Assembly: GCF_030684315.1 (NCBI RefSeq)
Contig: NC_081365.1
Location: 39,702,985-39,766,984 of the forward strand
Source of the DNA: Stegostoma tigrinum
Taxonomy: Eukaryota
Direction of reading: 5' to 3'
DNA length: 64,000 bases
The position numbers and the translations under genes were made by a program. The notes beneath the pieces are model-generated. The model was not told where the DNA came from. It saw only the letters and a program-made list of their open reading frames with translations, and searched no databases. This document shows, piece after piece, positions 1 through 59,285 of the stretch (position 1 is its first letter; the number at the start of each line of letters is the position of its first letter).

Positions 1-9
1 AAACCACTG

Positions 10-6078: not shown

Positions 6079-6229
6079 CTGTGGATGCAATCAGAATGAA
6101 GCTTATTTATAATAATAAACCACAAAAAAAGCTCAACTGATACAGTTCGTGACATGGTGATCGGATAGGTAACTATTTAAAGAAGGTCAACAACAAAACA
6201 AAAGTAAATTGCAGTTGGATTTTTTTCTT

Positions 6230-6550
6230 AAATACGTTCATGGTGCATGGGCACTGCTTGGCCAGCATATATTGCCCATCCTGAATTGCCCAGAGGGCAG
6301 TTAAGAGTCACCCACATTACTGTGGCTCTGGAGTCACATGCATGCCAGACCTGGTAAGGATGGCAGTTTCCTTCCCTGAAGTGAACCAGGTAGGTTTTTC
6401 TGACAATCGACATTAGATTCATGGTCAGAGACTCATCTATCCATCCAGGCTTTTTCAACTGAATTCAGATTTCACCATCTACCGTGGCAGGATTTGAACC
6501 CAAGTCCTCAGAACATCATCTGGGTTGCTGGATTAATTTTCATCAATAAA
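6230..6550 (-). mobile_element. SINE family A
   Basis: Same body and tail. Confidence 0.8.
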
Positions 6551-6929
6551 CTGGTTAGCAACGTTAGAAGAACATTCCACTTAGAACAGCATTTATACAT
6601 CCAGGCCTGAATTTCCAGATTTGTTTGCAGGTTCAAATAATGATACAAGAAACTCAAGTACACCAGGATTTCAAAAACATTCCAATGAGGTCCAGGAACA
6701 AGTTGCCAGAAACAATTTCCTTCAGCTATTTCAAAACAACTGAGAAAAGAAAAAGGGACAGCATGGGCAATTAGACCCAATGAGCCACATCAACCCAAAA
6801 GTAAACAGCTCCACAGAAAAATGTTACCATACATTCACATTAAAGCTGCAGCTTCAAATTGTAAACGTAGTCTGAATTTGGGAATCCAATGCATGATCAG
6901 ACACTGGATCAGGCAAAGGAGTGTCAAAT

Positions 6930-8661: not shown

Positions 8662-9012
8662 GGGAGGTGATGGCCTAGTGGTATTATCACTGGGCTGTTA
8701 ATCCAGAGACCCAGATAACATTCTGGAGACCTGGGTTCAAATCCCACCACAGCAAATGGTGGAATTTAAACTTAATAAATATCTGGAATTATGAATCTAA
8801 TGACTACCATGAATCCATTGTCAATTGTTGGGAAAACCCATCTGGTTCACTAATGCCCTTCAGGGAAGGAAACTGCCATCCTTACCTGGTCTGGCCTACA
8901 TGTGACTCCAGACCTACAGCAATATGGTTGACTCAACTACCCCCTGGGTAATTAGGGATGGGCAATAAATGCTGCCTAGCCAGCAAAGCCTTCATCCCAT
9001 GAATGAATTAAA
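8662..9012 (+). mobile_element. tRNA-headed SINE (family A), full length
   Basis: A box TGGCCTAGTGG at 8671-8681, B box GGTTCAAATCC at 8734-8744, LINE-shared tail, A-rich end. Confidence 0.85.
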
Positions 9013-9984
9013 AGAAAAAAAAAAAGCAACTTTATGGATATGCTTCTCATGTTTCCAGAAAAATCGTTACCCTAAGCATCAAACCCAATTTCCAAAACAT
9101 TTAAATGTTGTCAGGATCTCAGGTGATGCAGTCAGAGCTCAATATTTTCCAATTCTGTTTGGCTCGCACCCATCCTCATGTTCTTAGCTTATAGGATATC
9201 AATTTTCAAAATGGTACACACTTCTGGAAACATCTTTTTACCCCAGATAGCAGTTTAAACCAACTTACAATGATCATTCGTCATAAAAATACACTGAATT
9301 TAAGTTAGTTGTACATAAAGCAGTGCATCGCTTGTTACTGCCCTGGGACAGCAAGTCAGTGCCACTAATGTCAATAGGCACGTGGAACTGGAGGTGGCAC
9401 CCACTCTGCCTGTTAGATGTTGACCACAATATGCAGAGTCAAGCACTCATCACCTTGGTCACCAAACCCCCGGGGCTACCCCACTGGCTGTCCCACTCCC
9501 AACTCCTGTCAACATGCTTGTCCACAGAGAATGGTAAGCAACAAGGGAGCAGGATAGCTGGCAACTTTGCAAGCAGGGTGGTGAAGTGTTGAGGGTTTGG
9601 CAAGCAAATTTTAATCCCAGAATTTGAATTGACACAAAACATTTGCAAAAGCTACTTTATATCGGGGCTGAGCTCATTAAACTCTTAACTTTGCTTAATG
9701 CCAGGTACGGACCTAGTCTTTGATGCAGGAAGGTGCCTATTGCAAAATTTGCAATGACATTACAGACAATAGCTGCATGGGTGGGGAGTGCATCGCCTGC
9801 GGTTGTAGCAAATGCAGCTTTGAATTAAAAGCTTAAATAGACAAAATTCCATTTTAATATTGGTGTCATGCAATAAATGTGCCAAGGCAAACAGATGAAA
9901 ATGGAATACAAGACATCCTAATTTCATGCATGTAGGCTTTAATTTATTACTTTAGCACTTCAATAATTGAAGTATTAAAATTAC

Positions 9985-11795: not shown

Positions 11796-12384
11796 ATCCC
11801 AGCTCCCTGGCACTACTGAGCCATTACACTATCTTTAGTAGGCTTTATTCCTAGGAGTATTCCAAACGTCTGCAGTTACCAGAACTTTGCCATCTGTCGA
11901 AAGATGGACCATTGAGCTGGGTGACCTAAGTTGTGTGGTTTAAGATGAATTTTTTAACCATCATCTTCACTTTAATTATCAACTCCAGTAGTGCTTTCTA
12001 CTATGTTAAAAACCCTCGAACTATTTCTGTTGCTCATCAACTTAATTCTTCTAATCTTGTTGCTTCAGATATGATGGACAGAACAGAAAGAAGCATGCCC
12101 TTTCCAATGCTTGCAAGTTATAAATAACAAATTTAAAACAGCTCTCAATTCAACTGAATAGCTCTCACATTCCTCCTGCATCGTATCTGGTAGTATCCCA
12201 TGCAAAACATTACCAGACCCTTTCTACCTCCTCAACATGCTTTTGCACAAAACTAACTGCTTTAAAATGTTTTATAACTGACACATTTCAAAACATCTTT
12301 TTACATAACCCTGTATTGTGCTAACTCTTTTTTGGCATAATTCATATTATTAAAAAAGTGAACCAAAAACATGACATGACATGA

Positions 12385-12705
12385 CATGAGGGTCTAGCTG
12401 GCTAGGTCATCATTTATTGCCCATCCCTAATTGTTCAGAAGGCAGTTAAGAATCAGCCACATTGCTGTTCATCTGGAGTCACACGGAAGCAAGGTCAGGC
12501 AAGGATGGGGGATTTTTTTCTCTGAAGAATAGTAAATCAGATGGATTTTAAAAAAAAATTTGACATTAGTTACATTGTAGCCACTTGTTACTCCACATCA
12601 TTTGAAATTTGAATTTCAGCAACCTAATTTGAATGTACACCTCCAGAACATTGGGCTAGTAATCCTGAATCCAGATCAGTTTACTGCAACATCACCGCCT
12701 CCCCC
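12385..12705 (-). mobile_element. SINE family A, degraded
   Basis: catttattgcccatccctaattg tail and body similarity. Confidence 0.7.
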
Positions 12706-15607: not shown

Positions 15608-16747
15608 CTGCAAGAATAAAGGAAAATAACCAAACGTGAATGCCTCTCAATCCAGACAGAGAACAAAAAAAAGTCAAACAATGGGAGAAATCCCCACATC
15701 GTTAGAAACTTAAAAGTACACTTGCTGGTTCTACTGATTGCATTAAAATGTGACACGTGATTTCATCAAGTAGCATTTTCCACTGTGGGCAATGTTTTAA
15801 ATTTTGAGCCATCTGTTTCTCCATGCAAACTTCAAAACATAAATGAATGCATAAAACCACTGACCAATCTATCAGCTATTAAACGTAGTTATTTGGGAAT
15901 CCAGACATGAGCAATTGTATTATGGGCTAATAAGTGAGAAAGGGACACCTGCACTGTATTTGGCCTCAATATTCATTTACTTGACATACACATATACATC
16001 AAGACTTCTAACGTGAATAATGGCACTACAGAATGACACTAAAGCAAACATACAGAGCCATAATTTGACAGTGCATTTAAATGTCTGCTGTTAGCCCATC
16101 TTTCCTTCTTAACTGCCACAATCTTTTGTGGAAGTTGATTAAAAACACAAGTTCAATGTTACATCAAGGGAGATTGGGGTCAGTGTTTATTTGGTACTCC
16201 TGAAATCAGACTGAACAATTGTGAAATTAACCGCACAAAAAAAAAACAAAGGAAAATAGATTGGGTGAATTCAAAGTCAAATAAACCCCACAGATGGGGA
16301 AAGAAACATGGTTTATTTTATTTTCTCAATCCAAAAGGATAAAATAAGAAAAGGACATAAAATGGGATCATTTAAAATAAAAGTTCAACAAATAAAGCTT
16401 AAAGGAATGAGACTTCCAATTAGTTCATTTCTGCACCAAAGCTGACTGGCAGCATTTAAGGCTCATACATCTTTTAAAGGAATATTTTCAGCCTGCAAGA
16501 CTTAACCTTCGCCAGTGAATTCAGTGCATATCCAACACTAATGAAGCAACAAGCTATTCAATATATTTGAATTGCGAACCAGAGGGCAAAATAAAACTGA
16601 TCGTAGACACAAACATTTTGGACATGTTTTGAATTTCCACATTTCTCTGCTCATTCTCTTTGCCTGAAGTTGCGTGTTATTTTCATGTGAATAGTGAACT
16701 GTTGGCATCCATTGTCACAATAATTTGCTCAGAATCGGTGAATTTTT

Positions 16748-17095
16748 TTAAATTCATTCATTAATGGGATGAGGGTGTTGCTGCCTAGGCAGCATTTATT
16801 GCCCATCCCCAATTACCCAGAAGGCAATTTGGAGTCAAACACTTTGCTGTGGGCCTGGAACCACAAGTAGGCCAGACCCCATAAGAATGGCAGTTTCCTA
16901 CCAGGAAAAAGGACATCACTGAACCAGATGGGGTGTTCTGGAAATCAACAATAGATTCATGGCCATCATTAGACCTAGTTCCAAATATTTTATTGAATTC
17001 AAATCCCACCATTCACCATCTACTGAATCCCCGCATCATTATCTGGCTCTCTGGATTAACAGTCCAGCAATACGGCCACAATGCCATCACTTCCC
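16748..17095 (-). mobile_element. SINE family A
   Basis: Same head, body and tail. Confidence 0.8.
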
Positions 17096-21280: not shown

Positions 21281-21419
21281 AATTTCCCCGAATGGCCTTT
21301 ATACTTAAAACAAAAACAGCTAGAATGAACATTATAGATACATATCATTACAGCAGATAGTTCAGCCTACAAAAAATTTTTTAAGAACGAATGACACCAA
21401 CGCCAGTGATGTCCTTTTT

Positions 21420-21772
21420 TCTTTATTCATTCGCGGGATGAAGGTGCCACCAGCTAGGCAGCATCTATTGTCCATCCCTAATTGCCCAGATGGTAGCTAA
21501 GAGTCAAACACATTGCTGTGGGTCTGGAATCACATGTAGGCCAGGCCAGATAAGGATGGCAGTTTCCTTCTTTAAGGGGGATGAGCGAACCAGATGGGTT
21601 TTTCCTGACAATCGACATGAGATTCACTGTCATTAGATTGTTAATTCCAGAGATTTATTGAATTCAAATTCCACCATCTGCCCTGGTGGGATTTGAACCT
21701 GGGTCCCCAGAACATTATCTGGGTGTCTGGATTAACAGTCCAGCAATAATACCACTAGGCCATCACTTCCCT
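21420..21772 (-). mobile_element. SINE family A, full length
   Basis: Reverse complement of the 8662-9012 type. Confidence 0.85.
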
Positions 21773-23783: not shown

Positions 23784-23989
23784 AGATAATGGATTCTCCA
23801 GGATCTGCAGTTCCCAAGATAACAAAGTGTGAAGCTGGATGAACACAGCAGGCCATGCAGCATCTCAGGAGCACAAAAGCTGACGTTTCGGGCCTAGACC
23901 CTTCATCAGAGCTCTTTTGCGTCAGCTTTTGTGCTCCTGAGATGCTGCTTGGCCTGCTGTGTTCATCCAGCTTCACACTGTTATCTTGG
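23784..23989. mobile_element. ORF-less palindromic PLE derivative (family 1)
   Basis: Arms ~23815-23885 and ~23920-23989. TSD atttgtgtac at 23772-23781 and 23990-23999. Confidence 0.85.
23882..23909 (-). ncRNA. Hammerhead ribozyme motif, intact core with extended stem I
   Basis: AAGAGCU-CUGAUGA-AGGGUCUAGGCCC-GAAACGUC-AGCUUUU on the PTGFRN sense strand. Confidence 0.75.
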
Positions 23990-27072: not shown

Positions 27073-27208
27073 TGTTAATGAGAAATTTGTTTTAAAAACC
27101 ATATAGATTCCTCTGGCAGTAACAGTCATGGATGCTTGAGTTATCATTATACTTAAAAAAAAGTATGCAATCTAATCTGTTACATTTTAGGTGCTGATGT
27201 TACTTCAG

Positions 27209-27403
27209 ATAACAAGGTTTAGAGCTGGATGAACGCAGCAGGCAAGCTGACAGTTCGTGTCTGGACCCTTCTTCAGAATTCAGAAGGGTCCAGACCCGAA
27301 ACGTCAGCTTTCCTGCTCCTCTGATGCTGCTTGGCCTGCTGGGTTCATCCAGCTCTACACCTTGTCATCTCAGATTCTCCAACATTGGCAGTTCCTACCA
27401 TCT
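27209..27403. mobile_element. ORF-less palindromic PLE derivative
   Basis: Fold-back centre cccttcttcagaattc-agaaggg; both cores damaged. TSD ctgatgttacttcag (27194-27208) and ctgacattgcttcag (27404-27418). Confidence 0.8.
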
Positions 27404-27959
27404 CTGACATTGCTTCAGTCAGGCGTTCTGAAAATTGTATTAAATTATAAATTGTTACACGTTGTTGTGAAGGTTGTCCTTTATTCGTTTTTAAGAAAGC
27501 GGAATGAAATGAAAACTGTTTTCAAAAGGAGGGTTGAAAAGTTTGACCCAGTTTTGGAAGTAAATAATCTAACACCCATTGCAGGTAATTTTAACAACTG
27601 CTAGAACCAGCAGTAATTGAAGTTCAGATTCCTAAATGTGTGGAGGTGAGGGTACCTACTGATTCTGTTGGTTGCAGTTGCCAATGATTGGTCTCTTGCT
27701 TGCCAGCAACTGAGATTGGATCAAGGGTGGGTGAGCAACTTGGAGCTGGAAACAAGTTACAAAGAGCTACCATTCAGCAAAAAGTACAACTGACCAGTGA
27801 GAGACCCCAAACTGAGAGTCTCCTCCCAGCCCAGAAGCTACCTGTTCTCTGCAGACAAAAAAAAATTCATTTTAAACACTGAAAAACACTTACTTTTCCT
27901 ACAGCAGTTGCTGTGACTTTTAAATTGATAAATCAAGAGACATTTTCCAAATTATTTAT

Positions 27960-28325
27960 TTTTTAAAAAAATTGACAGACGTGGGATTGCTGGCTGGCCG
28001 GCATTTATTGCTTATACCTCGTTGCTCTTGAAGGTTGATCCAAAATGCCCATAGGGAAGAAATTGCAAGATTTGACCCAGCAACATTGAAGGAATGGTGA
28101 TACAATTCCAAGTCAGGATAGTGAGTACTTGGAGGAAAACTTGCAGGTAGTGATGCTCCCATGTATCTGCTTCTCTGTCCTTCTGGATTATAGCAGTCAG
28201 ACATTTGGAAGCTGCTTAAGTGATCTGTGAATTTCTGCAGTGTATCTCGACGATGATACATACTGCTACAAAGTGTTGATGGAGGAGGGAGTGGATGCTT
28301 GTGGGTGTGGCACCTATTAAGTGAG
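27960..28325 (-). mobile_element. 3' end of the same LINE family
   Basis: gcatttattgc tail; reverse complement of the 43300-43630 type sequence. Confidence 0.7.
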
Positions 28326-34029: not shown

Positions 34030-35505
34030 CTGTCGGCTGGACTCACTGTGGTTTTTGGCAGTGATGAGCTGCCTTCTTGAATGACTGAAATCCATGTGCT
34101 GGTGGACCTGCAATGCTTACAGGGTGGGGAGTTCCAGAATTCTGATCCTGTTACAGTGAAGGAATGGCAATACATTTCAAAGTCAGGATAGTGAGTGGCT
34201 TGAAGGGGTGCTTGAGGCAAGTGATGGCGTTCCCACATATCTTTAAATGTCATTAGTTCTGGGTTTGAAATGTGCTGTCTTTGGATCTCTGGTGAATTCC
34301 TACAGTGCACTTTGCAGCCGAGTGAACTTTTCTGATGCCAAACAGGCAGGCTGTTTTGACCCGGATGATGTCAAGTTTTGATTGTTGCTGGAGCTGCTTT
34401 TATCGAGGTAATGGAACACCTCTCCTGTCCAAACTGTGCCTTGATGATGGACAGGTTTTGGGGAGCCAGGAGGAGAGTCGCTCACTGCAGGATTCCTATA
34501 CCTTCTGACTTACACTTGAGTGCATAGTATTTATAAGGCAAGTCCAGTTCAGTTTCTGGTAACCTCTCAGTGTTACTTGTGGGGGAAATCTAGTGATGGT
34601 AATATCATCGAATGTCAAGAGGTGGAGGTTAATTTCTCTCCTGTTGACAAATAGTCATTGCCTGGCTTGTGGCACAAGTGGTACATGCTACTTCTCAGTC
34701 CAAACCTGAACACTGTGCAGCCTTTTTGCATTGGGACTCAGAACATTTCTGTATTTGAGGAGTCACAAATGGCATTGAATATCATGCAATCCTCAGCAAC
34801 CATTTCTACTTTTGACGTTACGTTGGAGGGAAGGGCATGGATGAAGCAGCTGAAGATGGTTGTATTTAGAGTATTATACTGACAACTATGGGGCTCTTGG
34901 GGTGCAGAAATAGCATCTCTACCTTTGAATCTGGAGACCCAATTTCAAGAGTCACCTGTTCCAAAGTTGTATAACAACAACTCAAGAGGCTGATTAGAAA
35001 ATACCTGTAACCGAGAAACTCCTGTAAGGATATCCTGGAACTGAAATGACAGGCCTCTCTTACTTTGCCAGGTGCCATTTCACCAGTGGAAAGCTTTGTC
35101 CAATTCCCATTGACTTCAGTTCTAATCAAACTCCTATCGGCAAAGGCAGCTGCTCTGATCACACTTCTGCCTCTGTTCAAACTAAGCTTGACACCATCCA
35201 GGCTAGAACAACCTGCTGTAACGAGGAGCCCAGTAGCCCTGGTACTAGAGCCCAAAATGAGCAGTGAACAGGTTATTTCTAAGCAAGTGCTGCCTGATAG
35301 GACTGATGATCCCTTTTACCACTTCATTGCTGAGTAGATAGATGGTCCAGCAATGTGTGTCAAATTTATCCTTTTTGTGTAGAGGATATACCTGGACAAA
35401 TTTACCACATTCTGAGATAGATGCCAGCATTGTGGCTGCACTAGGACAACTTGTCTAGGGACACAGCAAGTTCTGCAGCATGAGCCCTCAGTACAATTGG
35501 TAGAA
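34030..35505 (-). mobile_element. Degraded copy of the same LINE family
   Basis: Reverse-complement similarity to the RT and 3' region of 41500-43550 (HKKDK.., IISPIRQHLLRNNLFTAHFG). Confidence 0.65.
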
Positions 35506-39205: not shown

Positions 39206-39934
39206 AGATCTTACTCCATTGCTGTCTTTAACTTAGTTACACAAATTGTAGTGAAACTCTCAGAAAACAACTATTTCCTAACACAATAGAAAAGATAAAG
39301 ATAAAACCTCAAAACACATATCAGCAACTGCCTCAAGAACTGCAGGGGTATATTGTTGGGAAAAGCAGAACAGGTCTCTTATAATTACTGAGTTATTCTA
39401 ATTTTTGTTCTGGTGTTTAACACAAACTTTTGGAGAAGTTGCTTTGAACTGTTATTTTCTCAAGCATTTACTCTGCATCAACATTTGAAAAAAAAACCAA
39501 GCTGAAACTCTTGCAGGCCACTAACAACTGATTTTAAAAAAAACTTTTCTTCCTTGCACTTGAAAATTATTTGCCACTGACAGGGCAAGCTCCACTCTCA
39601 GTGGAACTGAAACTGAAACAGAAATAGCATGGCAGTAAATCTACTGCAGAAAGCAAAACCCTCTAAAAGTAAATCCATGAGGGGATAGTAGCTGCTCAGA
39701 ACAAAAAAAAAATTAATTGGAACAAATACTTTTGCAACATAGTTAGACTAGGAGACTCTCAACTCTTCACATTCCTCACACTAAGTATCTGTTGCCAAAC
39801 TAATTATACTGTTAACATTGTAAAAACTTCAACTACAAGCTCACTGCTGGTACAGTTGCGATAATATCTTCCAATACCAAATCACCTTGGAGTGTCATGC
39901 AAGCCTTAATTTTATTTTGGTTAGAACATGGTTT

Positions 39935-42900
39935 GGTGATGTTGGTGTAGTTGAAAGGCTTAGGACTGGGGACTCTGGGTTCAAATCCCACCATGGCAGA
40001 TGATGGAATTTTAAATTAAATTAATACTGAAAGAAAGTTAGTTTACTCACTGCTCATTTCTGCAAAGAAATGAAAACTTCTGGTTCACCAATGTCCTCGT
40101 GGAATGAAAATCTGTTGTCCTTATCTGGTCTGGCCTACACATAATTGCAGACTCACAGTAATGTGATTGACTTTCAACTGCCTACTGAAAATGACCTGGC
40201 AAGCAATTCAGTTGTATCAAACCACGAAGAGCAAATAAAGGAATGAAACCAAGAAGATAACCCAGTAATGACAAAGTCCTCTTACCAAGATCTGGGGGCT
40301 TGTGCCAGAATTGGGAGAGCTGTCCCACAGACTAAACAAGCAACAGCCTGAGGTTGTTTGTGAAGTATGATTCTAAAAAAATTATGTGCTGGAAACTACT
40401 AAAATCATCCAAGTGTTTTTGTGCCCCACTAGCAGGGCAGGCCCACAGGAGGTGGCAGCACAGCAGTACACAATCTGTGAGCCTTAACCTGTACTCCAGA
40501 AACCATTGCGTCAGGTCAAATATGGGCAAAGAAACCTCCAGCTAACAAATCAGTACTCCTCCATATTGAACACAATCCGGAAGCATCCGAGTTAATGGTA
40601 ATGGCACAGCATGTACTTTGGATGGGGAATTTCAATGTCCATCACCAAGACTGGCTCACTAGCAACAGTGAGTTTGCAGAGCTGTAAAGAGTACAGCAGG
40701 TCTGTGACATGTGCTGAAGGGACCAAGGGGGGAGAAGTTCTTTTTGACCTCATCCTCACCAATCTATTCGTAGCAGATGCTTCAGCCATGATAATGTTGG
40801 TAGGAATGGCCAGTGCTCAGTTCGTGGAGACGGGAGTTGCATCTTAACATTGAGGACATTGTCCATCGTGGTGTGTCAACAAACAGCATGCCAAATAAGA
40901 AACTTCGAACAGATCTGGCAATTCAAATCTGGGCACCAAAAAGGCACAGTAGATTATCAGCAGATGGTATTCAACCACATCTGCAACCTTATGGTCTAAC
41001 ACATGTCCAGCTCTCTCACTAACTAAGATTGACTGCTCAGTTTGATGGTCGAGAAATACTGCAGGAAGGAAAGCAGAAAGTAGCACCAGGAATACTTAAA
41101 AGTGCGATGTCAAACAGGCAAGGCGCGTCAAACAGCAGAAGCATGTGCAATAGACAAGGTTATATGATTCCACAACCAATGGATCAGACCTAAGCTCTGC
41201 AGTCTTGCCATATCCAGACGTAAATGGTGGGGGACAGCTAACACGAGTTGGAAGCACAAGGATTCTCATCCTTAAAAGATGGGGGTGCCCATCATATTAG
41301 TACAAAAGTCAAGGGTGAAATATTTGCATCTCAGCCAGAAGTTCTGAGCAGATGATCCATCATTTTCTCCTCCTGCAGTCCCTAACACAGATTATATCAT
41401 TCATTCTGATATAATTCATTCTACATGATATCAGGAAACAGCCGAGACAATGGATAATGCAAAGACTGACAAAATCATGATAACAACACCAAAGAATCTT
41501 TTCTCCAGAGCAAGCCACACCATTAGCCGAGCTATTCCAGCAAAGCTGCAATACTAACCCCTACTCTGTTTTCTCTGACCTTTGCCTCAGAAGGTTTGCG
41601 GACACCAATTGGACTGCAGAAGCGTAGAAGCAATGACACATAGTACTGGAAGCTTCTCCTGTGTATAGAATTCAGAAGATAATGTGAAGTCAGGAATGCT
41701 CAGAGGAAAAGCAGCCACTATCCAACAATTCCACTCTCAATCATCAGCAAAATGATGGAATGGTTCATAGATATGGACATAAAGTTACACTTGTGAAGTA
41801 ATGGTCTGGTCATTGGATTCTGCTAGGGCCACTGAGCATCTGATCTCATCAGAACCTTGATCCATACATGGACATAAAACAAGGGAGCTGAATTCCAGAC
41901 AGAAGTCAAGACTGACTGCTTTTGGCATCAACTGAATTTGAGACACAGAGACTGAACAAAACTGGAGTCAATGAGAATAGAGGGGAAAATACTTATGACT
42001 CATAACTGGAAGTAAGACAAACAGACAGTTGCAGATAACAAGGTGTGAAGCTGGATGAACACAGCAGGCCTGGCAGCAGACAAACAGGAACGCTGACGTT
42101 TCGGGTCTGGACCCTTCTGCAGAACTGGGAGAGGGGAAGGGGGTTCTGAAATAAATAGAGAAGGAGGGGCGGTGATAGCAGGTGGATAGTACAGCAGATA
42201 GGGGAGAGAGAAGACGGACAGCTCACGGAGGCAGGGGTGAAGCTAGTAAAGGTGAGTGTAATAAGGAATTTGGGATGGGGGGTTGGTCAGTGAGGTGGGA
42301 GGAGCACCTATCCACCCTTCTCACCTCACTGACCAAGCCCCACCTCCACTTCCTACCTACACTCATCTTTACCAGCTCCATCTCTGCCTCCTGGAGCTGA
42401 ACATCTTCTCTCCTACCTATCTGCTCTACTATCCACCTGCTATCACCGCCCCTCCTTCTCTATTTATTTCAGAGCCCCCTTCCCCTCTCCCAGTTCTGCA
42501 GAAGGGTCCTGGCCTGAAATGTCAGCTTTTCTGTTCCTCTGATGCTGCTTCGCCAGCTCCACACCTTGTCATCTCAGACCCCAGGATCAGCAGTTCCTAC
42601 TATCTGAGACAGTTTGCAGTTGTTGGAGATCAATCTCCTCACCCCCAGGACATCACTGTAAGCAGTGCCTCTCAAGGTCGTGAGTTAGTCCCAGCCATGC
42701 TTAGTTGCTTCATCAATTACCCTCCCCTCATTATATGGTCTCAAGTAGGGATGCTCTTTGATGAATACACAACATTCGGAATGAGTCAAGACTCTCCAAA
42801 TCCTGAAATAGTGCACGTTGAAATGCAGCAATATCTGTACAACACCCAGACTTGGACTCATAAGTGCCAAGAAACAATTGCGCCAGACACACCAGGCAAT

Positions 42901-43630
42901 GACCGCCTCAGAGAACCTAAACGCTGATCCTTGACGTTCAATGGTACTGAAGTTGACGAATCTCCTATCAACATTCCGAGAGTTACCACTGACCAGAAAC
43001 TGACCTGAATGAGCTATAGAAATACAGCGACTGCAAGACAGGTCAGCAGCTCAGAGTAGTGCGGTGAGTAACTCATCTCTTGTCTCTCCAAAACCTGTCC
43101 ACTATTTACATGACAAGTCAAGAGAAGATGGAGTACTCTATTTGTCTGGATGGGACCTTCTCCAAGAACATTCAAAAAGCTGGACACCATCCAAGACAAA
43201 GCAGCTCTATTAATTGGCATCAATCCACCATCTTCAGCATTAAGTTTCTTTCTGAATTGACATGGTGGGGACAGTGACACCAGTCCAGGCTACCAGATGG
43301 CACTGTGTGCCATCTACAAAATGCACTTCAGTAACTCAACAAGGTTCTTCTGGCAAGATCTTCTAAACCTGCAACTACTACCAACTGGAAGGACAGGAGC
43401 AGCAGATGCACAGGAACACCAGCATCTGGAAGTTCCCCTCCAAACTATTCACTATCTTGACCTGGGTTAAAATCCTGGAATTCCCTTCCTAATGATACTT
43501 GGACATTTCTATACCCCAAGAACTGAGAGCTTAAAACAGCAACTCACCACCACCTTCTCTAGAGTATTTAGGGATGGGCAATAAATGCTGGCTGAGTCAA
43601 CAATATCCATCTCCCACATATGAATAAAAA
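39935..43630 (+). mobile_element. Decayed near-full-length LINE (CR1/Zenon-like) with tRNA-like 5' head
   Basis: B box GGTTCAAATCC at 39978-39988. APE start (IWGLVPELGELSHRLNKQQP) at ~40290. RT remnants (SIISKMME; SQGRELVPAMLSCFIN; MLFDE). 3' tail gggatgggcaataaatgc...atgaataaaaa at ~43570-43630. Clade assignment is an inference. Confidence 0.75.
42035..42606. mobile_element. Palindromic PLE derivative nested in the LINE RT region
   Basis: Two inverted 3' termini, both cores reading CUGCAGA. TSD agacagtt(t)gcag at 42023-42034 and 42607-42619; the LINE RT continues on both sides. Confidence 0.8.
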
Positions 43631-43644
43631 CGAATGATGTCCAT

Positions 43645-43727
43645 TTCCGAAGGAGGGTCTGGGCCTGAAACATCAGCCTTCCTGCTCCTCTGATGCTGCT
43701 TCGCCCAGCTGTACATTGGTTATCACT
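43645..43727 (+). mobile_element. Degraded PLE terminus
   Basis: ccgaaggagggtctgggcctgaaacatcagccttcctgctcctctgatgctgc is a decayed core plus terminus. Confidence 0.6.
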
Positions 43728-43989
43728 GAAGACCTTATTATCGCTTTCATGTTGCTATTGCTATCCACAATCATCATAAAACTCTGGTTCACAAATATTC
43801 TTTGAGTGGAAATCTGTTGCCATTATCTGCTCCGGCTTATAAGTGATTCCAGACCCACAGCAAGGGCCTTCTAAAATGGTTTACGACTCTGCTCATGAGC
43901 AGTTAGCAATGGGCAATAAATGACTCCCATATTCTATGAAAGAATAAAATTGAAGCAAGCTTTGAACTATTCCCACAAATCCTTCACTG

Positions 43990-47380: not shown

Positions 47381-50043
47381 CCATCTGTGGATGATTACTG
47401 AAATTTAGTTGAACTGCTTGCTGACACCATAACACATGGCATAGACTTTTTGAGTACCATGGTTAATTCCATCTGAGCTCAACCAGATAAATTAGTACAG
47501 CATCAGTTCCCAAATTAATTGCACATTTTTTGCTTTCACTTCTCTACCTAGCAGAATTTGACTTTTACTTATATGGACATGATTCTTTCTATGTAACAAT
47601 TTAGGTTTTTTTCCAAAAAGGAAGTTATCCTTTTAACGCCCTTCACTAATTTATAAGTTATCAAAAGATCATTTTGTAGCCACCTTTAAAAGGTGAAAAA
47701 TACAAGTTGGTACAGCCTTTTCTTTTGCTTCAAACCTCTAACAGTAGGGGTTCAACTTTAACTTGCCCAGTAAGAAAGAACCACCACTTTTACATCATTG
47801 ACATTATTGGCATGTAAAAACACATACTGAGTAAAATAGTTTTGTTGATCCAATCCCATCAGTTTTCTGCTGGGTGGATTACCTTTTAATTAGCCGTAAA
47901 GAACCATTTTTGTATCTTCTCTCTGGATTCTTACCAATGTTATATGTGCTCTTGATGATTTAATGTTTAAGTTTGGGCACATTTTGCAAAGTGTGGTCAA
48001 GCCAGAACACTATTCCTGCCATCTCTTCACAGGATGTGGCAACATTGGCTAGACCAGTATTTATAGCCCATCCCTTTATTGCCCTTAAAAAAGTTGCCTT
48101 TTTGAAATACTGCTGTCCCATTGGTGTAGCAGCACCCACTGTGCTGTCAGGAAAGGGCTATAGGATTTTAATCCAGTGACAGTGATGTATGGCTTGGAGG
48201 TGAATTTGCAGGTGGAGGTGGTGCCCATTGCAATTATTCATGCCCCCTCCAAATTTATATTCTAATGTTTTATCTGTACAAAGCAGCATTCTGTTTGATT
48301 TGTTGATTGCTATCACGTAGGGATTGAACATGAGCTACAAATTTACTAAAATGAATAGGTCTTTTACATTTCTCTGAGAGATTTCACAAATTCCACGGGG
48401 TACATATATTTTTCATTTTTTGTTTCTGTAGACAGTGCTTTATATTTACCATATGAATCTTTACCTTCTGTTGTTACATTTATTTACATAGCTTGCCAAA
48501 TGATTTTACAGGTCCAGAGCAAGTTCCTTCTTGTGATAGGTTTGTGTGACTGATCCATATTACTAATCCTACTATGAGACAGTATGGATCTGCAGAATAA
48601 TTCCTTAGACTCATCGCCCAGCATTTCTTACACCAGCATCTTTCACACCTAACTGCCTGTTTAAAAAAATTTTCATGGTTTTTGTCTATTTCAAAATGTC
48701 TCTGAAGTTTCTCGAGCTCCTATTGTCTGTAACTCATCTTCCATGTACAACTTGGTTAAGTTATTTCAAGTTGGAGGGTTTCCACAGCTACCACTTCCTC
48801 AAGTTGCACCTAGATGCTAAAAGTAATGAGACCTATAACAAGTTCACAGCTTGTAAAAGAAGCTAAAAGCAGGACTGTCTCTGGCTTAATGTGGAGTAGA
48901 AGTTATACATGGGTGATCGAAGGTCATCAAGGAACTAAAAATTGTTAAAGATAGCTATTAAATGAAGACAATTATGGGCTTTCATTTTAATTCAACTCAA
49001 TTCCAATTTATTGTCCATATGGAAATTCATTTTGGCCTCATTTTGTTACATATAGCTGTATAATGACAGTTAAAAAAAGAGAATTATTCAAAGAGATTTA
49101 ACTTTAATTTACAACTATTTCAATGCATTAGAATAATTTGTCAGTAATTCCCACAGTTGATACTTATCCTCAAACGTACAAAAGTGCTGCTAAAGATGCT
49201 TATAAAGAAGGGCCCATAAAATTTGTAAAACCAATCTGTCCTGCATCTGAAGAGTTGTTGCCTTCTCTTTCACAATGAGATAAGGATCATTATTCCTGAC
49301 AGTCTTTCATCAAATTTCTTCAACACTAGATTTCATCAAGAAATATTTACTCAACAAATGCCCTGTCTGATTCAATACTTTAGTTTATTCATTCATGAGA
49401 TGTAAACCAGACCAGCATTTATTGCCCGCCACTAATTGCCCCTGAGAAGGACATGATAAGCTGCCTCTTTGAACCTGCCAAAGTCTTCTGGTTTACCCCC
49501 TGTGTTGCTTTTGAGGGATTTCCAGGATTTTGATCTAGAAACAATGGAAGAGTAACAATATTGTCCCAAATTATGATGATATATGGCTCAGAAGGGAACT
49601 CGCAAGTGATGGTATTTCTATACATTTACAGATTCTCGAACATTGTTGAAGCTTTATCCGTTCAGGCACGTGGAGAGTATTTCATTATGCTGTTTGTCGA
49701 TGGTGGACAACTGCACCAGGCAAGATATCCAAAAAGAATAATGCTCTCAGCTGCTGCTGTAGAGAAAGGCTTCAAGTTTAGAGGATTTGCTCAAAAGGAC
49801 TTTAATATTCTGAGGTGACATAATTGTTTGTTCCTTTGCCACTGCATCTGAATATTGTTCCATCCTGTCATAAAACATTTTAATAAAAGCCCCTTTACTA
49901 GTCACGAGATAACATTTGCAGAACTGTAGTCAAGCAGGCTGGACAAAAGGAGGAAAAATGAGAGGAGAGAAGAATAAATAAAGATATGAGATACATTAAG
50001 GAAGAAGGACGCACAAGAAGATAAATCACTAACATTATCACTT

Positions 50044-50255
50044 AGAATAGGAATTGCAGATGCTGGAGAATCTGAGATAACAAGGTGTAGAGCTGGATGA
50101 ACACAGCAGGCCAAGCAGCATCAGAGGAGCAGGAAGGCTGACATTTCGGGCCTAGACCCTTCTTCAGAAATTCTGAAGAAGGGTCTAGGCTGGAAACGTC
50201 AGCCTTCCTGCTCCTCTGATGCTGCTTGGCCTGCTGTGTTCATCCAGCTGTACAC
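50044..50255. mobile_element. ORF-less palindromic PLE derivative with two hammerhead motifs
   Basis: Centre cttcttcag-aaatt-ctgaagaag; cores at 50140-50167 (-) and 50173-50200 (+). TSD aa(c/t)attatcactt at 50031-50043 and 50256-50268. Confidence 0.85.
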
Positions 50256-52854
50256 AATATTATCACTTTTTGTTTTCCTGATCAACCTGTTCATAGATGT
50301 TATTACTCACTTCTTGAGAAGGTGGGACTTGGACCCAGATCTCCCAGTCCAGAAGTGAGGACCTGTCCATTGCACCCCAAGCCCTCAACGTTAATATTAA
50401 TTGGCTAGCTCTGCAGCATGTTATCTATAGTTTGTCATTTATACTTGTTATTTTGTACAAATCAAGGCCTGAAATTCTTATGCCAACATATTTGAACATT
50501 GAAACTACAGGAAAATTGTACAGTAAATGATAAATGGGACCTTCAGTGCCCAAAGGTGTGTAGCTTTAAAAGAAATTGCTTCATTCAGTTTTACAATGTG
50601 ATAAAAACTGATTTATTTAATAATTTTCAACTGCAATCATAATATAACATTCAAGTCTATAACAGGATTAAAAAAGAAAAAAAAATGCATTTCAACGTAC
50701 ACAGTTTCAGTTCATGGACCTTCTGATTTATTATTTCAGGTCCTTATCATACCACCTTATTTCTTGCAGAATAAATTTCAACCAGTTCTCAGCTTCTTGT
50801 ATGAAATGATTGTAGAAAATTTCAAAATTTAATTCTCAAGCACAATTACTTGTCACACGTCAATACAGTTATCAATGGAGATACCACTCAAACCATGTAA
50901 AAATACTGGACTGGTATAAATAAACTTTTATCACTGGGCTAATTCCAGTCAATATCCTTGATGTCATAAAGCACTTTCATATGCAGAGTTATGTTCTGGT
51001 CCATTCAATTTCCAAAGGACTGATGAAAGTGAATAGAACAACTGATTCCCACATTATATATTATGGATGACTGGAGATGACAGTTGAATCCATTTACTAT
51101 GCCTTTGTCTGACGTTTCTCTGAACTCAAACAACAACAGACGTAGACAGAATCATTCTGTCTTTTTTTTTGTTCATTTCCATCAATAGAGCCTTGTTTTT
51201 AGTATAAACAGTGATATCAACGTCGTCATATTCCTGTCATCTTCCAGCCAGTGAAGTCATTGGAAAAATGAAGAAAGACTTTATGTAGGTTTAGTAAACA
51301 AAGGACAGCAATATAATAACATGTCACAAGGTGCCTTAATATGACTGAAAACACAGGGGAAACTGGAAGTGGGCTAATAGATATTATGGATGGGTGATGG
51401 TGAGTTTTGTGTTGAGGACTGCTGACTGTATTTTTGAGGGTGCAAGACTTGTGCTGGAGAAGGGGCAACTGTTAAAGGAAAGTATCAATGTCAAGCACCA
51501 TGAGGACTAGGAAGAGCAGTTCAATGCCAAAAAATGAATAGGGAAAGGATATCACAGGAGCAGAGTTTGGAAAGGTTTAAAAACTCCATTACCGGTGAGA
51601 GTTCAGAATTGTTTGTTAGAAAACTGAGGGGAGATGGGCACCAATGAGGAAGAAGGAAGGAAGGAAATAACAGATACAGAGGTAGAGTTGCTGAAAATAA
51701 GGCAGTCAAAGGTAAAGATGCAACAGTGGTTCAATACATTATTGTAGCAGAAATGCAAGGATGTTGAAAAACTAAGGAAGAAAAGGCAAAATAAAGTCTT
51801 GTGAATTAGAGATCGAATTCATGGAAGGAGTAGAATTATTATGTTATGTCAAGATAAGTGGCAGTGTGGATGGTAATAAAAAGATCAGACTAGGAATCAT
51901 TCTTGCTGAACAAATTATCTCATTTGCGTGTTGACAAATCTATTGCCTGTGGACAAAATAGTTTAATTGCAGGCTGTACTTAAATATAAAAAAAAATGCA
52001 TTTTATGCACCAGTGCATAACAGTTTGTTTGTGAGCCCTGAGTTGACAACAGGGAAATCAGAAGTTTAAAACAAAACTAAAATGCTGGAAATGCTGGAAT
52101 TCTGGCATGAAGGTAGAAACTGTATCCAAAACACCCCCAATTCAGATCTCCTGCATCATCCTCACCTCCCAGCCCAGTCAATACCTGACATGCTGCCTCA
52201 TCTTCCTGTGGCTGACTCAGGCCTGCTAAACTGTCATTCACGGGACCCTTACAGTTTCCAAAACCTAGTGAACAATGGCCAGAATGCATCCCAGCAGTCA
52301 GTGAAGGGATCTGAACCAACAGTCTCAGCCTCTGCCGAAGCACCGTAGAGGAACATCAGCTTTGAAATTGTAATTCACCAAGAATTTGTCTGTGGGCATT
52401 TTTCATAATGTTATGTTATTAAGCTTTTTTTTATAACACCAGATTAAAGTTATTGAAAAGCCCCACTTTCACATCTTTCCCATTATTAAATACGAAGTAC
52501 CAATTCACTCTGAAACTTGCTTCATGATGAATGTCCAGATGTTATGGAACTCAGTGAGCTGATGTACAATGGATGTATGAGTGGTTGAACAGCTGCCCAA
52601 GGAGGGGCTGAGGGGACGATTGGTCCTGTTGATGGGAGTGATTCATTTCTTATGTTTTACAGTAGGTGCATCTTTGCAATATTAGCACACTCTAGGCCCA
52701 GTATAATCAGTAGATCTCGTGAAAGGTGTCCCATTTTCAGCCCCTTAGTCTGACCTTCTCTAAGTTCCCTTCATCTGAAGAAAAGAGAAGAGTCCCTTTA
52801 TTCTCTTCCACCTGTATTCTTGTCTGGTGTCAATGTTGTGCAGGATGCGAATAC

Positions 52855-54955
52855 ATAATAGACAGTAGACAGTAGGTACTGGAGTAGGCCATTCGGCCCT
52901 TGAGCCAGCACCACCATTCATTATGATCATGGCTGATCATCCACAATCAGTATCCTGTTCCTGCCTTATCCCCATAACCCTTGATTCCACTATCTTTAAG
53001 AGCTCTATCCATCTCTTTCTTGAAAATATCCAGAGAGTTGGCCTCCACTGCCTTCTGGGGCAGAGCATTCCATATATCCACCACTCTCTGGGTGAAGAAG
53101 TTTTCCCAACTCTGTTCTAAATGGCCTACCCCTTATTTTTAAACTGTGTCCTCTGGTTCTGGACTCACCCATCAGCGGAAACATGCTTCCTGCCTCCAGA
53201 GTGTCCAATCCCTTAATAATCTTATACGTCTCAATCAGATCCCCTCTCATCCTTCTAAACTCAAGTGTATACAAGCCCAGTCGCTCCAATCTTTCAACAT
53301 ATGATGGTCCCGCCATTCATGGAATTGACCTCGTGAACCTACGCTGCACTCCCTCAATAGCAAGAATGTCCTTCCTCAAATTTGGAGACCAAAACTGGAC
53401 ACAATACTCCAGGTGTGGTCTCACCAGGGCCCTGTACAGCTGCAGAAGGACTTCTTTGCTCCTGTACTCAATTTCTCTTGTTATGAAGGCCAGCATGCTG
53501 TTAGCTTTCTTCACTGCCTGCTGTACGTGCTTGCTTTCATTGACTGATGTACAAGAACACCTAGATCTCGTTGTACTTCCCCTTTACCTAACTTGACTCC
53601 ATTGAGATAGTAATCTGCCTTCCTGTTCTTGCCACCAAAGTGTATAACCACACATTTATCCACATTAAACTGCATCTGCCATGCATCCGTCCACTCACCT
53701 CGCCCATCTAAGTCACCCTGTATTCTCATAACATCCTCCTCACATTTCACACTGCCACCCAGCTTTGTGTCATCAGCAAATTTGCTAATATTACTTCTAA
53801 CGCCTTTGTCTATATCATTAATGTATATTGTAAACTGCTGCGGTCCCAGCACCGAACCTTGTGGTACCCCACTGGTCACCGCCTGCCATTCCGAAAGGGA
53901 CCCGTTTATCACTCCTCTTTGCTTCCTGTCAGCCAGCCAATTTTCAATCCAAGTCGGTATTTTGCCCCCAATACCATTTGCCCTAATTTTGCTGACCAAT
54001 CTCCTATGCGGGACTTTATCAAAGGCTTTCTGAAAGTCCAGGTACACTACATCCACGGGTTCTTCCTTGTCCATTTTCATTGATACATCCTCAAAAAATT
54101 CCAGAAGATTAGTCAAGCACGATTTCCCCTTCGTAAATCCATGCTGACTCTGACCTATTCTGTTACTGCTATCCAAATGAGTCGTAATTTCATCTTTTAT
54201 AATTGACTCCAGCATCTTTCCCACCACTGATGTCAGGCTAACTGGTCTATAATTTCCTGTTTTTTCTCTCCCTCCTTTCTTGAAAAGTTGGACAACATTA
54301 GCCACCCTCCAGTTCGCAGTAACTGATCCTGAATCTATAGAACATTGGAAAATGATTACCAGTGCATCCATGATTTCTAGAGCCACCTCCTTAAGTACCC
54401 TGGGATGCAGACCATCAGGTCCAGGGGACTTATAAGCCTTCAGACCTAACAGTCTATCCAACACCATTTCCTGCCTAATATAAATACCCTTCAGTTCATC
54501 CATTACCCTTGGTCCTTCAGCCACTACTGCACGTGGGAGATTGCATGTGTCATCCCTAATAAAGACAGATCCAAAGTACCTATTCAACTCTTCTGTCATT
54601 TCCTTGTTCCCCATAATAAATTCACCCGTTTCTGACTTCAAGGGCCCAATTTTAGTCTTAACCATTTTTTTTCTTTTCACATACCTAAAAAAGCTTTCAC
54701 TATCCTCCTTTATATTTTTGGCCAGTTTTCCTTCGTACCTCATTTTTTTCCCTCTGTATTGCCTTTTTAGTTATCCGCTGTTGCTCTTTAAAAGCTTCCC
54801 ACTCATCTTTGCTATATTATACTTCTCTTTTATTTTTATATAGTCCTTAACTTCCCTTGTCAGCCACGGCCGCCCCTGCCTCCCCTTAAGATCTTTCTTC
54901 CTGTTTGGAATGATCTGATCCTGCACCTTCTGCATTATATCCAGAAATACCTGCA
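52855..54955 (-). mobile_element. CR1 LINE, 5'-truncated, RT region largely open
   Basis: 410-aa ORF with NYRPVSLTS, YLDFQKAFDKV, SGVPQGSVLGP and KFADD; C-terminal RPHLEYCVQFW in a shifted frame; short-repeat 3' end (gacagta)2. Confidence 0.95.
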
Positions 54956-56337: not shown

Positions 56338-57933
56338 CAAGATAATAAAATGTGAGGCTGGATGAACACAGCAGGCCCAGCAGCATCTCAGGAGCACAAA
56401 AGCTGACGTTTCGGGCCTAGACCCTTCATCAGAGAGGGGGATGGGGAGAGGGTTCTGGAATAAATAGGGAGACAGGGGGAGGCAGACCGAAGATGGAGAG
56501 AAAAGAAGATAGGTGGAGAAGAGAGTATACGTGGGGAGGTAGGGAGGGGATAGGTCAGTCCAGGGAAGACGGACAGGTCAAGGAGGTGGGATGAGGTTAG
56601 TAGGTAGGAGATGGAGGTGCGGCTTGGGGTGGGAGGAAGGGATGGGTGAGAGGAAGACCAGGTTAGGGAGGCAGAGACAGGTTGGACTGGTTTTGGGATG
56701 CAGTGGGTGGAGGGGAAGAGCTGGGCTGGTTGTGTGGTACAGTGGCGGGAGGGGACGAACTGGGCTGGTTTTGGGATGCGGTGGGGGAAGGGGAGATTTT
56801 GAAGCTGGTGAAGTCCACATTGATACCATTGGGCTGCAGGGTTCCCAAGCGGAATATGAGTTGCTGTTCCTACAACCTTCGGGTGGCATCATTGTGGCAC
56901 TGCAGGAGGCCCATGATGGACATGTCATCTAATGAATGGGAGGGGGAGTGGAAATGGTTTGCGACTGGGAGGTGCAGTTGTTTATTGCGAACCGAGCGGA
57001 GGTGTTCTGCAAAGCGGTCCCCAAGCCTCCACTTGGTTTCCCAATGTAGAGGAAGCCACACCGGGTACAGTGGATGCAGTATACCACATTGGCAGATGTG
57101 CAGGTGAACCTCTGCTTAATGTGGAATGTCATCTTGGGGCCTGGGATAGGGGTGAGGGAGGAGGTGTGGGAGCAAGTGTAGCATTTCCTGCGGTTGCAGG
57201 GGAAGGTGCCGGGTGTGGTGGGGTTGGAGGGCAGGTGGAGCGAACAAGGGAGTCACGGAGAGAGTGGTCTCTCCGGAAAGCAGACAGGGGTGAGGATGGA
57301 AAAATGTCTTGGGTGGTGGGGTCGGATTGTAGATGGCGGAAGTGTCGGAGGATGATTTGTTGTATCCGGAGGTTGGTGGGGTGGTGTGTGAGAACGAGGG
57401 GGATCCTCTTTTGGCGGTTGTGGCGGGGGCGGGGTGTGAGGGATGTGTTGCGGGAAATGCGGGAGACGCGGTCAAGGGCATTTTCGACCACTGTGGGGGG
57501 AAAGTTGCGGTCCTTGAAGAACTTGGACATCTGGGATGTGCGGGAGTGGAATGCCTCATTGTGGGAGCAGCTGCAGCGGAGGCAGAGGAATTAGGAATAG
57601 GGGATGGAATTTTTGCAGGAGGGTGGGTGGGAGGAGGTGTATTCTAGGTAGCTGTCGGAGTCCGTGGGCTTGAAATGGACATCAGTTACAAGCTGGTTGC
57701 CTGAGATGGAGACTGAGAGATCCAGGAATGTGAGGGATGTGCTGGAGATGGCCCAGGTGAACTGAAGGTTGGGGTGTAAGGTGTTGGTGAAGTGGATGGA
57801 CTGTTCGAGCTCCTCTGGGGAGCAAGAGGCTGCGCCGATACAGTCATCAATGTAACGGAGGAAGAGGTGGGGTTTGGGGCCTGTGTAGGTGCGGAAGAGG
57901 GACTGTTCCACATAACCTACAAAGAGGCAGGCA
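56338..57933 (-). mobile_element. Penelope-like element, 5'-truncated (RT from YIDD motif, GIY-YIG endonuclease, 3' terminus)
   Basis: FLRYIDDCIG..LTFLDLSV..HFKPTD..SIPYS, then the GIY-YIG region, with stops and frameshifts. Intact hammerhead at 56405-56432. Confidence 0.92.
56405..56432 (-). ncRNA. Minimal type-I hammerhead ribozyme motif
   Basis: CUGAUGA-A-GGGUCUAGGCCC-GAAA-CGUC. Confidence 0.75.
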
Positions 57934-59079: not shown

Positions 59080-59285
59080 AGACATATTACAGCTTGCAAG
59101 TCAAAAGAGTGGAGCAATACATTGTTGTTATAAATGTTTGTGGAAGAATAACAATTGTATTTGTAGATGAGAATTAAAAGATTTCATAAAGGACAAGAAC
59201 AGATTAATCTGTCAATACGAAAACCAAAGGTCTCTTGAAAATATTTACACAAATGAGTTCAAAGCTGTGTACCTTCTACTACAGT

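What the first reader, a model, noticed from the sequence alone, without database searches (positions are those of the whole stretch)
39935..43630. LINE with a tRNA-derived Pol III head and no ORF1; the abundant SINE looks like its internal-deletion derivative
Seen: 39965-40190 aligns with the head and body of SINE family A (8662-9012): B box gggttcaaatcccacca, ctggttcac.aatg, cctta.ctggtctggcctaca, gttgact...aactgcc. Where the SINE switches to its tail (agggatgggcaataaatgc), this copy instead continues ~100 bp into an APE endonuclease start, then RT, and reaches the same tail 3.4 kb later (~43570). There is no room for an ORF1. Inference: an autonomous single-ORF LINE uses a tRNA-like internal promoter, and the SINE is its 5' UTR fused to its 3' tail. 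That differs from the usual model in which a SINE borrows only the LINE tail. I cannot tell whether repeat databases already record this.
Basis: partly seen in the sequence, partly recalled or inferred. Interest (0 to 1): 0.7.

Follow-up and report, generated by a model that had tools for sequence, protein, structure and literature searches.

The report
Shark LINE with tRNA-type promoter head
This is a dead copy of an abundant shark-and-ray jumping gene whose family begins with the tRNA-like promoter head normally seen on short non-coding repeats, so it is likely read by the polymerase that makes tRNAs, and the short repeats beside it, built only from its two ends, likely arose when it lost its middle.

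Summary
Confirmed and family-wide. 39935-43630 is a decayed, near full-length single-ORF LINE (head, ~100-nt linker, APE, RT, tail), split by a Penelope-like insertion. Its head matches SINE A (78%, score 174 vs at most 47 in shuffles) and so does its tail; the SINE has no private middle. All 7 elasmobranch Zenon consensus rows in the supplement of PMC13343379 start with this head and linker (6 with a readable B box), 0 of 3 hagfish/coelacanth rows do, and that paper's main text never uses 'tRNA' or 'promoter'. So this is no chance SINE insertion. Five of 6 SINE copies share one junction: one founding deletion, then spread. Not shown: Pol III transcription (T-runs in this decayed copy equal the shuffle mean, 6 vs 6.0), direction LINE-to-SINE, RT placement by tree. 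By eye, the APE frame lacks an in-frame AUG, hinting at unusual translation. This scan noted the same architecture before: 48 findings in at least 12 genomes, also in this genome. Verdict: new variant of a known kind (catalogued family, undescribed head).

The parts
39935..39997 (+). tRNA-like part of the head: A-box-like 11-mer at 39943, B box 39979-39987; about 28 nt deleted between the boxes
   Evidence: by-eye match to the first 90 nt of the Zenon rows; Rfam tRNA model weakly on the SINE A equivalent
39998..40187 (+). Body shared by the LINE 5' UTR and SINE family A, ending where the SINE jumps to the tail
   Evidence: body motifs occur only in the 7 elasmobranch Zenon rows of Table S2
40188..40283 (+). 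LINE-only linker (A-rich spacer, out-of-frame AUG at 40243; about 60 nt shorter than in the family)
   Evidence: by-eye match to rows; other copies cover it (summed depth 334-1114 vs 10-20 single-copy; records 6 and 14 run 40116-40228)
40284..40800 (+). APE endonuclease remnant (motif I at ~40284, NFNVHH at ~40615, DLILTN at ~40747), frameshifted; end approximate
   Evidence: (Exo_endo_phos_2 E 0.097)
41490..42034 (+). RT, first half, decayed
   Evidence: P0014 41493-41874, E 1e-8; P0013 41668-41994, E 2e-5
42035..42606 (.). Later insertion: inverted (palindromic) pair of a Penelope-like repeat, NSRE1-like, with a 12-13 nt target duplication (42023-42034 / 42607-42619); not part of the LINE
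   Evidence: primers of NSRE1 in PMC1513397 resemble it by eye; 'Penelope-like' from recall and note e1-9987643
42607..43400 (+). RT second half and C-terminal region, decayed
   Evidence: whale-shark relatives, up to E 4e-26
43545..43630 (+). 3' tail shared with SINE A from ~43564, ending in a short A-run
8662..9024 (+). SINE family A copy: intact A box (8671) and B box (8735), body, junction at ~8946, LINE tail, poly(A)
21415..21772 (-). SINE family A copy, same junction
16745..17095 (-). SINE family A copy, same junction
6220..6560 (-). SINE family A copy, same junction
12380..12680 (-). Older SINE family A copy, same junction
43770..43950 (+). Old, 5'-incomplete SINE copy just downstream of the LINE; may have a longer junction (inconclusive)

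Best explanation
[quoted passage not shown] Steps: (1) an ancestral elasmobranch Zenon took on a SINE-like head, probably by template switching during reverse transcription (inferred; hagfish and coelacanth Zenon rows lack it); (2) the head travels as part of every full-length copy (shown, ~0.95); (3) the A/B boxes drive transcription from the element's first base, the ORF gives an APE-RT protein, perhaps by non-standard initiation, and the protein binds the 3' tail for target-primed reverse transcription (tail recognition from established CR1-group knowledge; Pol III use inferred, ~0.55-0.6); (4) a deletion joining position ~290 to the last ~65 nt left promoter plus tail, a ready-made SINE that then spread as its own lineage (structure shown; direction inferred, ~0.75).
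For: 7 of 7 elasmobranch Zenon rows begin with head, body and linker; 0 of 3 other vertebrate Zenon rows do; two rows reach the APE start within 400 nt. Six B-box 11-mers hit only 3 rows and four body/tail motifs only these 7 rows among the visible first 400 letters of the table's CR1-group rows. The window copy is a real genomic instance of the same junction, so it is no consensus artefact. In four runs of two species, 154-179 contigs each continue upstream of 40290 with letters equal to the end of the HypSab row, and other copies run from the body into the linker. The SINE is fully covered by LINE head plus LINE tail; 5 of 6 window copies share one junction; both continuations after that point (tail, and linker-type) occur among contigs. 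By eye SINE A shares several head variants with the whale-shark LINE row rather than the dogfish rows, as expected if it split from a recent LINE subfamily. Precedent for deletion derivatives of Zenon: Persaeus (PMC6740152, abstract and passages). A and B boxes are kept in LINE consensus rows of five species.
Against: No transcription data. T4+ runs on the sense strand of this copy equal the dinucleotide-shuffle mean (6 vs 6.0, P 0.59); pooled Zenon pieces have 6 runs in 3996 nt vs 14 in 3771 nt of other LINE pieces (one-sided P 0.044, post hoc, confounded by age). A Pol III RNA is uncapped and would be poorly translated (established knowledge). The tRNA match is weak (15.1 bits), and the HypSab row has a damaged B box, by eye. 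Microhomology at the junction is one exact base, unlike the 5-bp repeats of Persaeus. No listed contig of another copy bridges B box to APE in one piece (32 of 28,175 pieces shown). The head must itself have come from a SINE-like RNA, so a SINE-first history fits the same anatomy.
Confidence: 0.55

Rival explanations
1. Same anatomy and same deletion origin of the SINE, but the full-length LINE is transcribed by Pol II (from a promoter in the body or from flanking DNA); the A/B boxes serve only as a TFIIIC-bound chromatin anchor or are a relic that became a working Pol III promoter only in the short derivative.
For: LINEs are as a rule Pol II units and bipartite LINEs are thought to be so (PMC5786205, passage); no T-run depletion in this copy; an AATAAA-like signal and A-tail end the element; translation of a 3-kb ORF favours a capped RNA.
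Against: The consensus rows start about 5-10 nt before the A box, where a Pol III start is expected, in all five species (by eye); boxes are conserved across sharks and a ray; two of the three T-runs inside the laid stretch look private to this copy (family contigs diverge at 40011 and restart at 40744).
Confidence: 0.25
2. SINE first: an old tRNA SINE took the Zenon tail in the classical way, and the LINE separately captured that SINE's head and body as a new 5' UTR. The present SINE is then the donor lineage, not a deletion product.
For: The head has the build of a SINE (tRNA part plus ~190-nt body); other Zenon lack it; Zenon is a common SINE partner in bivalves (PMC11481361, passages); one junction dominates (5 of 6 copies); the SINE has its own diagnostic one-base losses in body and tail.
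Against: No SINE-only sequence at the junction; SINE A's head follows the whale-shark LINE row by eye, which would need repeated recapture; a possible second, longer junction at 43770-43950 (inconclusive: 12 of 30 matches to this window's decayed linker).
Confidence: 0.17
3. Chance: a SINE inserted just upstream of a 5'-truncated LINE at this locus, or the published consensus merged two repeats.
For: Both repeats are very abundant (65,000-67,000 contigs laid on the SINE stretch); no target-site duplication was found.
Against: The head lacks the SINE tail and passes into the same linker as in 7 of 7 independent consensus rows; other copies cover the linker.
Confidence: 0.03

Closest known systems
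Elasmobranch Zenon LINEs (CarCar, HypSab, RhiTyp, ScyCan, SquAca _Zenon; Stuart et al. 2026, PMC13343379; read: text parts 1-2 of 8, passages, supplement rows cut at 400 letters)
   Same: Same first ~330 nt, same linker and APE start, ~3.2-3.3 kb, no ORF1, A-tail. This copy is a member by its 5' sequence.
   Different: The paper does not describe the head: 0 occurrences of 'tRNA' or 'promoter' in the main text. This copy is decayed, carries a later insertion, and by eye belongs to an older subfamily.
Persaeus SIDE / Zenon of Lepidoptera (Wang et al. 2019, PMC6740152; abstract and passages)
   Same: Short element made of the 5' and 3' ends of a Zenon LINE by internal deletion.
   Different: Persaeus has no tRNA homology and no Pol III promoter, and has 5-bp microhomologies; here the deletion product carries A and B boxes and so is a SINE by definition.
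Bipartite non-autonomous LINEs and SINEs built on them: Bov-A/Bov-tA, RTE- and Vingi-derived bodies (Kojima 2018, PMC5786205; passages, supplement searched for motifs)
   Same: LINE 5' and 3' parts make up a SINE.
   Different: There the tRNA head is added afterwards to the deleted LINE; only RTE and Vingi were found to contribute. Here the head already sits on the full-length coding element, in the CR1 group.
HE1 V-SINE / HER1 LINE of sharks and rays (Ogiwara 1999, 2002; not held; seen only as table rows and citations in PMC3747384 and PMC4824008)
   Same: tRNA-derived elasmobranch SINE sharing a tail with a CR1-group LINE.
   Different: Described as a tail-only partnership with a V-domain body. 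By my recall its body differs from this one; no call gave its sequence, so identity was not tested.

Membership tests
Zenon (CR1 group), elasmobranch | No ORF1 | tested here: met
   About 100 nt between shared body and APE motif I in this copy, about 150 nt in the rows; only a ~46-codon out-of-frame ORF is seen by eye
Zenon (CR1 group), elasmobranch | Single APE + RT ORF | tested here: met
   tblastn with intact relatives and whale-shark proteins places APE before RT; APE support is weak (E 0.003-0.1) because of decay
Zenon (CR1 group), elasmobranch | Poly(A) tail | tested here: met
   Short A-run at 43624-43630; contigs continue into A-runs behind the shared tail
Zenon (CR1 group), elasmobranch | Sequence match to published family consensus | tested here: met
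   First ~330 nt, linker and APE start match the 7 rows by eye and by motif search; the rest of the rows is cut
Zenon (CR1 group), elasmobranch | RT groups with Zenon in a phylogeny | not testable with these tools
   No named Zenon protein was returned
tRNA-derived SINE (SINE2), for family A | tRNA-related head with A and B boxes | tested here: met
   Both boxes in 2 of 5 SINE heads scanned, B only in 1; tRNA model full-length but weak, 15.1 bits, none in a second copy
tRNA-derived SINE (SINE2), for family A | Short, non-coding, LINE-derived tail, high copy number | tested here: met
   ~350 nt; tail 79-84% to the LINE in 3 of 4 copies aligned, 73% in one; tens of thousands of contigs
tRNA-derived SINE (SINE2), for family A | Transcribed by Pol III | not testable with these tools
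   No RNA data
SIDE / bipartite internal-deletion derivative | Made only of the LINE's 5' and 3' ends | tested here: met
   first 61 nt checked by eye
SIDE / bipartite internal-deletion derivative | Descends from the LINE (nested in its tree) | tested here: inconclusive
   By-eye sharing of head variants with the whale-shark row only; no tree could be built
SIDE / bipartite internal-deletion derivative | Lacks tRNA head and Pol III promoter (as defined for Persaeus) | tested here: not met
   A and B boxes present; so it works like a SIDE but is not filed as one
V-SINE / HE1 | 80-bp V domain in the body | not testable with these tools
   Source paper not held; motif searches in three supplements blank, one file unreadable

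The most novel reading that the evidence does not exclude
Elasmobranch Zenon is an autonomous protein-coding retrotransposon transcribed end to end by RNA polymerase III from a captured tRNA promoter, and translated without a cap and without an in-frame AUG; because promoter and tail are already on it, a single deletion makes a finished SINE, a one-step route to SINE birth that reverses the textbook order.
Probability: 0.35. Interest if true: 0.85.

Novelty: new variant of a known kind. Interest (0 to 1): 0.6.

Why it matters
The textbook divide is Pol II for coding LINEs and Pol III for non-coding SINEs that borrow only a tail. A LINE family with hundreds to thousands of long copies per genome (Table S3 of PMC13343379) that keeps A and B boxes at its 5' end across sharks and rays blurs that divide. 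It makes two open questions testable: where SINE bodies come from (Kojima 2018 calls widely conserved bodies of unknown origin), and whether Pol III can make a functional 3-kb mRNA. It also matters for annotation, since SINE and LINE heads will be confused in repeat libraries.

Tried and rejected
No genome was held, so the genome-wide count could not be run. Pattern scans found nothing in metagenome contigs, viral contigs (37, 38) or prokaryote genomes (40). Pfam on six raw frames: 0 hits. Word-index protein search with the decayed RT piece: 0 of 8 candidates passed. ARAGORN and Rfam at gathering score: nothing in the window. No RNA holder listed among sequencing runs. No convincing target-site duplication for the LINE or three SINE copies. 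Folding: SINE A head folds better than shuffles (z -3.6) but as long hairpins, not a cloverleaf; the other 4 of 5 stretches were not significant. T-run depletion claimed in earlier scan notes was not seen in this copy. My first guess, HE1/V-SINE with HER1, rested on recall and was dropped once the Zenon rows matched. A consensus-building artefact was rejected because the window is a real copy with the same junction. Literature: searches (listings and abstract starts only) showed no paper describing a tRNA-headed autonomous LINE; subscription papers, Repbase, Dfam and SINEBase entries were not searchable, so absence from print is not established. Supplements that may bear on this and were not seen: Table S2 of PMC13343379 beyond 400 letters per row, the bioRxiv version's files, file 1 of PMC4824008. 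Sequence look-up in earlier findings was blank, as was a word look-up on the start-codon question.

Full report
Observation. Its 5' part aligns with SINE A and three more SINE copies (blastn 71.5%, E 8e-20; local alignment 77.9% over 213 columns, score 174 against at most 47 in 300 shuffles). The B box lies at 39979; an A-box-like 11-mer lies 36 nt before it, where two SINE copies have 64 nt, so the head has lost about 28 nt. Similarity to the SINE ends at 40187. About 100 nt later comes APE motif I, TKIWGLVPELGEL, which resembles the same motif in the nearest intact relatives P0015 and P0056. RT follows, and the tail at 43564-43630 matches the SINE tail (80.9%). The copy is dead: none of six frames hit Pfam, and RT is split by a Penelope-like inverted insertion at 42035-42606 with a 12-13 nt target duplication. 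No target-site duplication was found for the LINE itself.

What it is. A search of 1.84 billion representatives with the RT piece gave 7 hits; the two single-stretch hits and four of their closest relatives are whale-shark gene models with RT profiles. tblastn with these and with full-length APE-RT proteins maps APE, then RT, on the element (RT to E 4e-26, APE only E 0.003). A literature search led to Stuart et al. 2026 (PMC13343379; I read parts 1-2 of 8, passages, and supplement rows cut at 400 letters). It reports Zenon LINEs in elasmobranchs, without ORF1 and with a poly(A) tail, and says they had not been submitted to a repeat repository. Its Table S2 shows 10 Zenon rows. All 7 elasmobranch rows (five species, including a ray) begin with the head, body and linker seen here; the 3 hagfish and coelacanth rows do not; two rows reach the APE start inside the visible 400 letters. 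As a control, four body/tail motifs hit only these 7 rows and six B-box 11-mers only 3 rows, all elasmobranch Zenon, in the visible part of the whole table (the paper counts 1,003 families). The main text has no 'tRNA' and no 'promoter'. These comparisons with the rows were made by eye and by motif search, not by alignment.

Independent genomic support. No genome was held. Contigs of four runs from two species were laid on 39800-41000. The linker bins carry summed depth 334-1114 against 10-20 for single-copy flank; a different copy (records 6 and 14) runs from the body 41 nt past the SINE breakpoint; 154, 162, 179 and 166 contigs continue upstream of 40290 with letters equal to the end of the HypSab row. 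No listed piece of another copy spans B box to APE, but only 32 of 28,175 pieces were shown and this copy is near the 80% limit. Organism B holds the same insertion (records 17 and 20 of X5; 12 differences in 203 nt, 53 in ~800 nt), so it predates their split. The chance-insertion reading is rejected.

The SINE. SINE A positions 62-285 align to the LINE head and 270-351 to the LINE tail, leaving no private middle; its first 61 nt match the published rows by eye. Five of 6 copies in the window share one junction, with one exact base of microhomology judged from two other tail fragments in the window. Four copies share a one-base loss in the body that none of the LINE rows has (vs 25), so the family spread from one founder. 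On the SINE stretch 67,421 and 65,016 contigs were laid; behind 8934 the majority continuation is the SINE junction in X1 (2,638 contigs, agreement 0.57) and the linker-type start in X5 (2,308, agreement 0.54), so both forms exist. The sixth copy (43770-43950) may reach about 30 nt further into the linker; against this window's decayed linker only 12 of 30 bases match, so this is inconclusive. The window's LINE copy is no closer to the SINEs (68-76%) than they are to each other (70-84%) and by eye resembles the dogfish rows, whereas SINE A shares several variants with the whale-shark row. That favours a deletion from a later LINE subfamily but is not a tree.

Mechanism. Shown: head on full-length copies, no ORF1, SINE equal to two LINE ends. 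Inferred: capture of the head by template switching, Pol III transcription, and LINE-to-SINE direction. For Pol III: boxes kept across five species and consensus starts just before the A box. Against: the tRNA model scores only 15.1 bits on SINE A and nothing on a second copy; T4+ runs in this copy equal the shuffle mean (6 vs 6.0). Pooled Zenon pieces have fewer runs than other LINE pieces (6 in 3,996 nt vs 14 in 3,771 nt, P 0.044, post hoc), and two of three runs inside the laid stretch look private to this copy. The earlier notes' claim of T-run loss is therefore neither confirmed nor refuted here.

A point not found in earlier notes (blank). In the HypSab row, the only one intact up to APE, the AUG shared by 6 of 7 rows lies out of frame with APE and would open an overlapping ORF of about 46 codons (completed with window letters); the APE frame has a basic N-terminal stretch like P0015 and P0056 but no AUG after the last stop. 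An AUG-codon-stop unit further upstream is in the APE frame in three rows and out of it in the others. This is a by-eye reading of consensus rows that may hold errors. If real, it means reinitiation, non-AUG start or frameshifting, which an uncapped RNA would need.

Relation to what is known. The LINE is a member of the catalogued elasmobranch Zenon family on four of five features; RT placement could not be tested. The SINE works like Persaeus, the deletion derivative of lepidopteran Zenon (PMC6740152, abstract and passages), which lacks a tRNA head. It differs from Bov-tA-type SINEs, where the head is added after the deletion (PMC5786205, passages). Zenon partners of bivalve SINEs share tails only (PMC11481361, passages). 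HE1/HER1 was seen only as table rows and citations and could not be compared. Eight literature searches (listings only) showed no description of a tRNA-headed autonomous LINE; repeat databases and subscription papers were out of reach. This scan noted the same architecture in 48 findings from at least 12 genomes and twice in this genome; these notes are not independent evidence and did not set the score.

Verdict. Real, family-wide and apparently unremarked in print; new variant of a known kind; interest 0.6, rising to about 0.85 if Pol III transcription of the full element is shown.

Noticed in passing
window 40191-40340 and supplement rows: The conserved AUG before APE is out of frame with APE in the one intact row and opens a ~46-codon overlapping ORF; the APE frame has no in-frame AUG in the visible part. 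Start of translation unexplained; by-eye reading.
   Followed up: partly
window 42035-42606, 43641-43710, and about ten more places (e.g. 874-1056, 2298-2476, 23817-23986, 27206-27409, 50048-50264, 56340-56524, 59282-59577, 63265-63988): Very abundant Penelope-like repeat, often as inverted pairs; resembles the NSRE1 primers of PMC1513397. One copy inserted into the LINE's RT, another 10 nt behind its tail.
   Followed up: partly
window 15147-15701, 12979-13497, 5522-6106 (- strand): Three long ORFs that look like Ig-domain exons of a PTGFRN/EWI-family gene (name from recall, not searched). The LINE lies upstream of them on the opposite strand, probably in a long intron or 5' of the gene.
   Followed up: no
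window 43770-43950: Old SINE copy directly downstream of the LINE, possibly with a longer 5' part before the tail (second breakpoint).
   Followed up: partly
window 1-470, 608-680, 736-830, 28108-28183 (-), 34415-34950 (-), 49413-49441 (-): Further Zenon fragments: 3' pieces, an isolated tail, and a head cut off by a Penelope-like insertion at ~830.
   Followed up: partly
window 53000-54950 (-), 11000-11820 (-), 19885-20883 (-): Other LINE RT remnants; the one at 53511-54770 keeps a 419-codon open frame and looks like a canonical CR1 (label from recall). Used only as T-run controls.
   Followed up: partly
window 41560-41650: About 80 nt in the LINE that do not fit the protein alignment; possibly another small insertion.
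   Followed up: no
run X5 records 17 and 20, run X8 record 28: The same insertion is present in a second species at about 6-7% divergence.
   Followed up: partly
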